From: a virus
Virus genome (UHGV): UHGV-0144805
Reading direction: 5' to 3' (one strand)
DNA length: 31,052 bases
A program made the position numbers. Below, piece by piece: positions 1 to 3,000 of the stretch (position 1 is the stretch's first letter; each line of letters begins with the position of its first letter).

Positions 1-3000
1 AGATGTGTATAAGAGACAGCGGTAGTCCGTATGGAGAACACCCCGTTGAGGAAGAGGCCTGGCCGGAACCGTAACCGGCACTATAACGTTGAGAACACTG
101 GCGTAACGGGGTGATATCCCAATCTACGAATAAATGTTGCGTTGCAGCGTGACAACCAATGTTCTCAACATTGTGGTGAATGCACAGGCTGATGTGCCGC
201 AACTACAGTAGTGCGCGCTTTGCGGGGCTTGCTACAACCCTGTGTCGGAGTTCAGCACCGACCATCACAGTTTGATTCTCTGGCATGAGCATAACGCTGA
301 AATAAGTCCAGTCTGGTGCGGCCCGATCACCCGCCGTTAGCTCCACGAAACGGAGCACGTAACAGGTAAGAGCATTCTCCTGTAACGGGTTCATATCCCA
401 ATCTACAGGTCCACCAGGAATGCTCTTTCCGTTGCGGTGAATGCGGCTAAGCGCACGCGGAACAGTTAAAACAATCCTCCTTAATGGTTAAACATTCCGA
501 CGTTAATTGTTAACTGGTTAACGTCACCGGGAGGCACTCGGCACCGCAATCTAATAAATATGTCACTTTTATTGAGGGATAACCAATGTTCGGTAAATTG
601 TTCGGCAAGAAAGTCGCTTCTGCAAAAGTAGAGCTGAAAAAAGTTGAGAATCGCGATCTGATGGAGGCCATCATCGGTGGCTGTTTGTTGGTGTCTGCCG
701 CTGATGGTGAAATCGAAAAAGAAGAAACAGCGAAACTTGATCAGCTTGTCCGCTCTAATCCGCGTCTTAGTCATTTTGGTAACGAAATTACTGCAACAAT
801 TACCCGCTTTACCGAGCAACTGGAAGCTGGCTTCCGTGTTGGTCGCATGAATATCCTTCGCGAAATTGAAGATATCAAAAACGATCCAAAAGAAGCGGAA
901 GAAGTATTCGTTAACATGCTGACAATTGCAGAAGCGGACGGTGAAATCGAGCCAGCAGAACACAAAGTACTGGAAGAAGTAGGCCGTCGTTTAGGTCTTC
1001 GTGTGGAAGATTATCTGTAATGGCAAGCAAGGCACGTATCGCAATCGCCATTGGTTTTCTCTTGCTGTCCGTGCTGGTGGATTTCACCAGCACAATCCTG
1101 TCAGTTTTATCGGACGGGGCGTTGGTGGCAGTAGCTGTAACATTGGTATGGCCGATATTAAAAACAGCTTCTAAGGATCAGTGATGGGCTTCTGGGATTT
1201 TGCTGACAAGCATCCAATTGTTCTCGTTGTCATTGCTGGCATAGTTGTAGGCGGTATTGCTGGCGTCATAGAAGCACTCAGGAAACAGTAATCCGGCCCT
1301 TTAGCTCAGTGGTTAGAGCTGGCGACTCATAATCGCACGGTCACCGGTTCAAGTCCGGTAGGGGCCACCATATTTGGTTGTAACACGGCGTCTGGCACAT
1401 GCGTCGTTAGCGGTCTGGTGACGTTAAAAGGGGGGAACCTTGCCCCTAGCTCAGGCAACGAACCAGGTAGCCGGAATGTGCAAGCCACCGTTTGTTGTTT
1501 CTCGGGTAAAGGGATTCACCATCCTGGCGATTCGGTGTGACAGCCGGGAAGAGTCCGGCGCATTAATCCTGATTTTCTGGTGATGACTCATATCGTTAGG
1601 AGTGATTTGAGTATGCCGATTATATCTGACATTCAGCACGCCTGGGTGGAGTGCTAATGTCTGCATCCCCTCTTGAATCCATGCCAAATTCCCTTAGTGC
1701 AGAACAAGCTGTACTTGGTGGCTTAATGCTTGATAACTGCCGCTGGGATGAAGTTGCAGATCGTATAGTTGCTGATGATTTTTATACCAGTGCTCATCGT
1801 GAAATTTTCAGTGAGATGGAGAGGTTATTAAGTCATGGCAAACCGATTGATTTGATAACACTTGCTGAAGCACTTGAACAGAACGGTAAATTAGAACGCG
1901 CCGGTGGTTTTGCGTACCTTGCGGAGATGTCAAAGAACACGCCCAGCGCGGCAAATATTTGTGCTTATGCGGATATCGTTCGTGAACGCGCGGTTGTTCG
2001 TGAAATGATTTCCGTCGCAAATGAAATAGCCGAAGCTGGATATGCGCAGGATGGCAGGGGCAGCAATGAATTGCTGGATATGGCCGAGCGCCGCGTTTTT
2101 GAAATAGCTGAAAAACGACAAAAGAGCGGTAGTGGTCCAAAAGATATCGCCAGCATTCTCGATGCAACGGTATCTCGCATAGAAGAGTTGTTTCAGCGAC
2201 CACATGATGGTGTAACGGGGCTTGATACGGGATTTACCGATCTCAATAAGAAGACGGCAGGGCTTCAGCCGTCCGATCTCATCATTGTCGCCGCCCGCCC
2301 ATCTATGGGGAAGACCACGTTTGCGATGAATCTCGTCGAAAATGCCGCAGTCCGTAACTATAAGCCCGTATTGGTTTTTAGCCTTGAGATGCCGAGCCAC
2401 CAGCTGATGATGCGCTCACTGGCTTCTCTTGCACGCGTTGATCAGACTCGTATTCGAACAGGGCAACTTAACGACGAGGATTGGGCGCGGGTTTCTGGCG
2501 CAATGGGGATTCTGTTGGACAAGCAAAATATTTTTATTGATGACTCAAGCGCCCTGACACCTACAGAGCTTCGTTCCCGCGCTCGTCGTGTTTATAAAGA
2601 AAATGGTGGTTTGAGCATGATTATGATCGACTACCTGCAACTTATGCGCGTCCCCGAGCTGCAAGATAACCGAACGCTGGAAATTGCCGAGATTTCTCGC
2701 TCACTGAAGGCTTTGGCGAAGGAATTACAAGTACCGGTGGTGGCATTGTCACAACTTAATCGTTCACTTGAACAGCGTGCGGACAAACGACCGGTAAATT
2801 CAGATTTACGTGAATCAGGAGCAATTGAGCAGGACGCAGACCTGATCATGTTTCTGTATCGCGACGAAGTTTATCACCCGGAAAGCGAAATGAAGGGCAT
2901 TGCCGAGGTGATTATCGGTAAGCAACGAAATGGCCCAATTGGCACGGTGAGATTGGCTTTTAACGGCCAATACTCACGGTTTGATAACTATGCTGGTGCT

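What the first reader, a model, noticed from the sequence alone, without database searches (positions are those of the whole stretch)
1..19. Tn5 mosaic-end sequence at the very start of the window
The first 19 bases are exactly the Tn5 ME used in Nextera/tagmentation adapters and EZ-Tn5 transposons. Most likely this is untrimmed adapter at a contig end; it could alternatively be a junction from an engineered Tn5 insertion. Either way it is not native phage sequence and coordinates 1-19 should not be interpreted biologically.
Basis: partly seen in the sequence, partly recalled or inferred. Interest (0 to 1): 0.4.

Follow-up and report, generated by a model that had tools for sequence, protein, structure and literature searches.

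The report
Leftover Tn5 sequencing adapter at contig start
The first 19 bases are the synthetic Tn5 "mosaic end" left by tagmentation (Nextera-type) library preparation, stuck onto an ordinary P1-like phage-plasmid; they are a technical artefact, not biology.

Summary
Observation confirmed. Window 1-19 is an exact 19/19 copy of the synthetic hyperactive Tn5 mosaic end (ME), AGATGTGTATAAGAGACAG. It is the only copy in the window. It differs from the natural Tn5 outside end at 3 positions.

From base 20 the window is a P1-like phage-plasmid, 98-100% identical to P1, P7 and hundreds of E. coli and Salmonella plasmids. Every listed alignment starts at exactly base 20. Five relatives carry an identical, unrelated native sequence upstream (...GGAACGACCAATAAA|CGGTAGTCC), so the 19-mer replaces native DNA. 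The break falls in the middle of the annotated P1 plp reading frame.

The ME's 3'-CAG abuts the phage DNA, as Tn5 strand transfer produces.

About 97% lie within about 180 bases of a contig end and point inward. Of the copies with bases outside the ME, 225 of 236 carry an exact Nextera arm and 5 more match with one mismatch. 24 are exactly terminal, as here. None showed transposon interior.

Verdict: an untrimmed tagmentation adapter remnant at a contig end. An engineered mini-Tn5 insertion cannot be formally excluded because nothing lies upstream, but it is unlikely (about 3%). No biological interest; mask bases 1-19.

The parts
1..19 (+). Synthetic Tn5 mosaic end (ME), transferred-strand orientation, with its 3'-CAG abutting the insert. 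Non-native adapter remnant.
   Evidence: Exact 19/19 match and the only copy in the window. ME sequence as in PMC4248319 and PMC2566895. 3 mismatches to natural OE, 4 to IE.
19..20 (.). Junction between adapter and native P1-like DNA (a Tn5 strand-transfer site in vitro).
   Evidence: All listed alignments to phages, plasmids and E. coli genomes start at query base 20. Five relatives share an identical 60 nt upstream (...CCAATAAA|CGGTAGTCC), of which only 5/19 bases match the ME.
20..202 (-). First 61 codons of the reading frame annotated as plp (putative lipoprotein) in P1, cut off by the window start. This shows the start is an arbitrary breakpoint, not a natural end.
   Evidence: P1 NC_005856 annotation. 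The window translation matches the first 61 residues of P1 Plp at 58/61 positions by my count.
20..27191 (+). Native P1-like phage-plasmid backbone: tciA/terB, tRNA(CAT), ban/dnaB, structural genes, phd-doc, pacA/pacB, ant.
   Evidence: 98-99.9% identity to P1, P7, RCS47, SJ46 and IncY-type plasmids. tRNA at 1295-1370. Gene content of relatives.

Best explanation
Bases 1-19 are what remains of a tagmentation (Nextera-type) sequencing adapter. During library preparation, hyperactive Tn5 transposase loaded with free ME oligonucleotides cut the P1-like plasmid DNA. It joined the 3'-CAG end of the ME transferred strand to the base that is now window position 20. A read carrying that junction was not fully trimmed, most likely the reverse complement of a 3' read-through; that detail is inferred. 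The assembler then extended the contig end into it, so the contig begins with ME followed by genuine phage-plasmid DNA. Shown here: exact ME identity, the exact breakpoint, the orientation, replacement of native sequence, and the commonness of this artefact. Inferred: which library kit was used, and why exactly 19 bases rather than ME plus adapter arm remain. Plausible causes are partial trimming of the arms by the submitter or a contamination screen, or a graph branch where the two Nextera arms diverge just outside the shared ME.
For: (1) Exact 19/19 synthetic ME, a unique copy, chance expectation about 0.01 even allowing 3 mismatches. (2) It is not the natural Tn5 end: 3 mismatches to OE, 4 to IE. 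(3) Homology to native DNA starts at base 20 in all 40 listed phage and plasmid hits and all 15 listed E. coli hits. Among the E. coli records, 428 cover at least 80% of window 1-400. (4) Five relatives from different hosts have the same 60 nt upstream, unrelated to the ME (5/19 identical), so the ME replaces native sequence. (5) The break lies inside an annotated ORF (plp) and at no known P1 terminus. (6) The orientation is 5'-ME-CAG|insert, as in the Tn5ME-A/B oligonucleotides whose 3' end is joined to the target. (7) Base rates. All 119 with any outside base carry Nextera arm A or B (117 exactly, 2 with one mismatch). 4 are exactly terminal. Both internal copies also carry arms. Of the other 6, five sit next to a 454-type adapter or key, a scaffold gap or a homopolymer run, and one internal lone ME appears to be a chimeric join. 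No sampled copy showed transposon interior.
Against: No adapter arm (TCGTCGGCAGCGTC or GTCTCGTGGGCTCGG) is present, because the window starts at the ME. So the feature that would positively identify a Nextera adapter cannot be seen. No other adapter fragment occurs in the window. The source contig and reads were not found, so I could not confirm that the window start is the contig start or inspect trimming.
Confidence: 0.95

Rival explanations
1. A real in vivo or in vitro insertion of an engineered ME-flanked mini-Tn5 (EZ-Tn5 or Tn-seq type) into the plasmid's plp region. The assembler would have broken at the transposon end because the transposon is multicopy or pooled.
For: The ME is also the end of commercial and laboratory mini-Tn5 elements. 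The orientation, with the outer CAG against the target, is the same as for a true insertion. Nothing upstream is available to exclude it.
Against: No second ME in the 31 kb window. A repeat-induced contig break normally leaves k-1 bases of the repeat, not exactly the 19-bp ME (inference). The backbone is a wild-type P1-like plasmid carrying a natural Tn3-family bla transposon, and bases 20-400 are 100% identical to a chicken E. coli plasmid. In 260 sampled ME copies in public contigs, none showed transposon interior.
Confidence: 0.03
2. The ME comes from another ME-containing laboratory construct or protocol: a Nextera mate-pair junction adapter, a METa-type cloning vector (pZE21-ME), or Tn5-based long-read or linked-read preparation. 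That would still be an artefact, but not a standard Nextera read-through.
For: ME/ME junctions exist in such vectors and mate-pair libraries. A split at the ME|ME centre would leave exactly 19 bases. The genome-contig sample also shows 454-type adapters next to the ME.
Against: Much rarer than standard Nextera arms in the sampled contigs. A 31 kb insert does not fit small-insert functional libraries (inference).
Confidence: 0.02
3. The 19-mer is native phage-plasmid sequence: a chance match, or a natural IS50/Tn5 end.
For: None beyond its presence.
Against: Chance expectation is about 2e-7 for an exact match. Relatives carry a different conserved sequence at this place. The natural OE and IE differ at 3 and 4 positions. 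The ME is a laboratory-derived hybrid.
Confidence: 0.001

Closest known systems
Illumina Nextera / Tn5 tagmentation adapter (Tn5ME-A/B oligonucleotides, 19-bp mosaic end)
   Same: Identical 19-bp ME. Same orientation relative to the insert. Contig-terminal position, as in almost all ME copies sampled in public contigs.
   Different: The 14-15 nt arm that distinguishes adapter A from B is absent because the window begins at the ME. 24 of the 260 sampled public copies are likewise exactly terminal.
EZ-Tn5-type engineered mini-Tn5 transposon end
   Same: Same 19-bp ME, with the outer end facing target DNA.
   Different: No transposon interior, no second inverted ME and no testable 9-bp duplication. 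The context is a wild-type plasmid.
Natural Tn5 / IS50 outside and inside ends
   Same: Related 19-bp transposase binding site; 16/19 identical to OE.
   Different: 3 mismatches to OE and 4 to IE. No IS50 sequence in the window.

Membership tests
Synthetic Tn5 mosaic end (ME) | 19/19 identity to CTGTCTCTTATACACATCT or its reverse complement | tested here: met
   reference sequence.
Synthetic Tn5 mosaic end (ME) | Distinct from the natural OE (CTGACTCTTATACACAAGT) and IE | tested here: met
   3 mismatches to OE, 4 to IE. OE sequence from PMC2566895; IE sequence from memory.
Tagmentation (Nextera-type) adapter remnant | Located at a contig or sequence terminus, with the ME 3'-CAG pointing into the insert | tested here: met
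   Position 1-19, + strand. Orientation as in Tn5ME-A/B. Same pattern in 121/123 sampled viral-contig copies and about 131/137 sampled genome-contig copies (within about 180 nt). That the window start equals the contig start is inferred.
Tagmentation (Nextera-type) adapter remnant | Homology to native relatives breaks exactly at the ME boundary, and relatives carry other sequence there | tested here: met
Tagmentation (Nextera-type) adapter remnant | Adapter arm (TCGTCGGCAGCGTC or GTCTCGTGGGCTCGG) immediately outside the ME | not testable with these tools
   The window starts at the first ME base. No arm occurs elsewhere in the window. The source contig was not found.
Genuine Tn5-type transposon insertion (natural or engineered) | Second, inverted end sequence delimiting the element | tested here: not met
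   No other ME-like site within 3 mismatches in the 31 kb window. The element would, however, lie upstream and off the window.
Genuine Tn5-type transposon insertion (natural or engineered) | 9-bp target-site duplication (here CGGTAGTCC) flanking both ends | not testable with these tools
   Only one side of the junction is in the window.
Genuine Tn5-type transposon insertion (natural or engineered) | Transposon interior (marker, ori or transposase) adjoining the inner side of the ME | not testable with these tools
   No sequence lies upstream of base 1.

The most novel reading that the evidence does not exclude
The ME marks a true engineered mini-Tn5 insertion, for example from a transposon-mutagenesis library, in the plp region of a wild P1-like, blaTEM-carrying phage-plasmid. 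The assembly would have broken at the transposon end.
Probability: 0.03. Interest if true: 0.1.

Novelty: not a real feature. Interest (0 to 1): 0.03.

Why it matters
It matters only for data hygiene. Bases 1-19 should be masked or trimmed before gene calling, terminal-repeat or packaging-end analysis, or comparison. The window start must not be read as a genome terminus, a pac/cos end or a transposon boundary. The controls also show that bare or arm-bearing ME remnants are widespread at contig ends in public viral and genome collections. Any scan that flags odd contig termini should therefore filter this 19-mer first.

Tried and rejected
(1) I searched for the source contig with the ME-P1 junction as an exact pattern in viral, genome and metagenome contigs and found no hit. 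So I could not confirm the contig end or see more upstream sequence.

(2) I looked up the exact 372-aa Ant protein, hoping it was unique to this element. It is a common intact P1-like protein, listed in 1064 blocks of the collection, and gave no source contig.

(3) I looked for the same P1::Tn3 junction in PLSDB. The search was swamped by more than 5000 blaTEM records and none of the 5000 best-scoring records covers at least 80% of the query, so it was uninformative.

(4) I compared the 9 bases after the ME (CGGTAGTCC) with the weak target preference visible in the control junctions. I rejected this as a discriminator because both the adapter and the engineered-insertion hypotheses involve the same transposase.

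(5) MAFFT split the ME into two pieces against upstream native DNA. That is an alignment artefact; the ungapped comparison gives 5/19 identities.

(6) I searched the window for other adapter parts (Nextera arms, TruSeq, P5, P7) and found none.

Full report
**Observation**

The window begins AGATGTGTATAAGAGACAG|CGGTAGTCCGTATGG.... The first 19 bases are the reverse complement of CTGTCTCTTATACACATCT, the 19-bp hyperactive Tn5 mosaic end (ME). That sequence is given in Picelli et al. 2014 (PMC4248319) and in PMC2566895.

This is the only ME-like site in the 31,052-base window on either strand, even allowing 3 mismatches. 0.01 matches are expected from 100 dinucleotide-preserving shuffles.

**Synthetic, not natural**

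PMC4248319 states that the wild-type IS50 end sequences (OE, IE) were replaced in vitro by the hyperactive ME. PMC2566895 gives the natural OE as CTGACTCTTATACACAAGT.

The window 19-mer has 0 mismatches to the ME, 3 to the OE and 4 to the IE (the IE sequence is from my memory). It is therefore the laboratory sequence, not a natural Tn5 or IS50 end.

**What the surrounding DNA is**

- From base 20 the window is a P1-like phage-plasmid. Bases 20-3000 are 98-99% identical to P1, P7, JL22 and RCS47. They are 99.8-99.9% identical to many non-mobilizable plasmids, IncY where typed, from E. coli, Salmonella and E. albertii.
- Bases 20-25000 follow the P1 gene order from tciA/ban through the structural genes to pacA/pacB.
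- The P1-like backbone runs to 27191. The last 3.9 kb (27192-31052) is a Tn3-family transposon.

**The breakpoint**

In all 40 listed phage and plasmid hits, and in all 15 listed E. coli genome hits, the alignment starts at query base 20, never earlier. Among the E. coli records, 428 cover at least 80% of window 1-400.

I fetched five relatives from different sources:
- P1 NC_005856
- P1 OP279344
- S. Typhi ph681355
- chicken E. coli p1337c
- possum E. coli p1gmyPossum

All five carry the identical 60 bases upstream of the junction, ending ...GGAACGACCAATAAA|CGGTAGTCC. The last 19 of these match the ME at only 5 positions, which is chance level. So the ME replaces native sequence rather than being embedded in it.

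The junction is not a known P1 terminus. It lies inside the frame annotated as plp in P1. Window 20-202 (minus strand) encodes its first 61 codons and is then cut off.

**Orientation**

The Tn5ME-A/B oligonucleotides read 5'-arm-AGATGTGTATAAGAGACAG-3', and the transposase joins the ME adaptors to the target DNA. That it is the 3' end of this strand which is joined is established knowledge of the Tn5 mechanism. The product reads 5'-(arm)-ME-target, which is what the window shows.

**How common this artefact is (controls)**

I scanned two public collections for the exact ME.

| Measure | IMG/VR viral contigs | GTDB genome contigs |
|---|---|---|
| Exact ME copies sampled | 123 | 137 |
| Near a contig end, pointing inward | 121, within 67 nt | about 131, within about 180 nt |
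| Exactly terminal, as in this window | 4 | 20 |
| Exact Nextera arm outside the ME | 117 | 108 |
| Arm with one mismatch | 2 | 3 |
| Other flank | 0 | 6 |

- In the viral sample, every copy with at least one base outside the ME (119 of 119) carries arm A (TCGTCGGCAGCGTC) or arm B (GTCTCGTGGGCTCGG). The two internal copies also carry arms, so they are adapter-mediated chimeric joins.
- In the genome sample, five of the 6 other copies sit next to a 454-type adapter or key sequence, a scaffold gap or a homopolymer run. The sixth is a lone ME between two genomic stretches, apparently a chimeric join.
- No sampled copy showed transposon interior.

A terminal ME in a public contig is therefore, empirically, a library adapter remnant.

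**Adapter or engineered insertion?**

The window alone cannot separate the two, because both put ME-CAG against target DNA and nothing lies upstream of base 1. Several points favour adapter:
- the base rates above;
- the absence of a second ME in the window;
- the wild-type character of the plasmid, whose bases 20-400 are 100% identical to a field isolate's plasmid;
- the fact that exactly 19 bases remain. A repeat-induced break at a real multicopy transposon would normally keep k-1 bases of interior. The two Nextera arms diverge immediately outside the shared ME, and partial trimming of arms is evidently frequent, given the 24 exactly terminal public copies. This point is inference.

I could not find the source contig or its reads. 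The adapter reading therefore rests on these indirect arguments. I put it at about 0.95, engineered insertion at about 0.03, other ME-containing laboratory constructs at about 0.02 (one search shows one such vector), and native sequence at about 0.

**Verdict**

This is a known technical artefact with no biological content. Bases 1-19 should be masked, and the window start should not be treated as a genome end.

**Noticed in passing**

- The window ends in a Tn3-family transposon. Its 38-bp terminal inverted repeat (GGGGTCTGACGCTCAGTGGAACGAAAACTCACGTTAAG) starts at 27192. It is followed by blaTEM (27339-28199, minus strand), a resolvase ORF (28382-29008, minus strand) and tnpA running off the window end.
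- It is inserted immediately after the stop codon of the antirepressor gene ant (26073-27191; Pfam ORF6N and ANT). In relatives this short spacer separates ant from the c1 repressor gene.
- The contig ending inside tnpA is typical of a repeat-induced assembly break (inference).

Noticed in passing
window 27192-31052: Tn3-family transposon: terminal inverted repeat at 27192-27229, blaTEM at 27339-28199 (-), resolvase ORF at 28382-29008 (-), and tnpA (+) running off the window end. It is about 98% identical to the Tn3 of phage P7. It is inserted directly after the stop codon of the antirepressor gene ant (26073-27191), in the short spacer that separates ant from the c1 repressor gene in relatives. 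A beta-lactamase-carrying P1-like phage-plasmid is a known kind of element (P7, RCS47). This exact insertion site was not seen in the records I could inspect.
   Followed up: partly
window 31052 (right end): The window stops inside Tn3-family tnpA, about 1.1 kb short of where a 4957-bp Tn3 would end, with no adapter sequence there. This looks like a repeat-induced assembly break. Together with the ME at the left end, and the odd window length, it suggests the window is a whole short-read contig.
   Followed up: no
window 1295-1370: ARAGORN calls a single tRNA with anticodon CAT as tRNA-Met. The homologous gene is annotated tRNA-Ile (ileX-like, lysidine-modified CAT) in P1 and in RefSeq plasmids. 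The two tRNAs that precede it in relatives (Asn, Thr) lie upstream of the junction and are missing from the window.
   Followed up: partly
One IMG/VR dataset (3300045988) accounts for many of them. A few internal copies mark adapter-mediated chimeric joins (L014 at 2168, L026 at 3701, L252 at 3073).
   Followed up: partly
L126-L135, about 16.2-17.6 kb in locus coordinates: In P1-like relatives, the slot downstream of the cre-like integrase and the RecA-dependent nuclease gene holds different cargo genes in different plasmids (RelA_SpoT-like, SIR2_2, PIN_12/PIN_8). This looks like a variable defence or accessory hotspot. It lies outside the part of the plasmid covered by this window.
   Followed up: no
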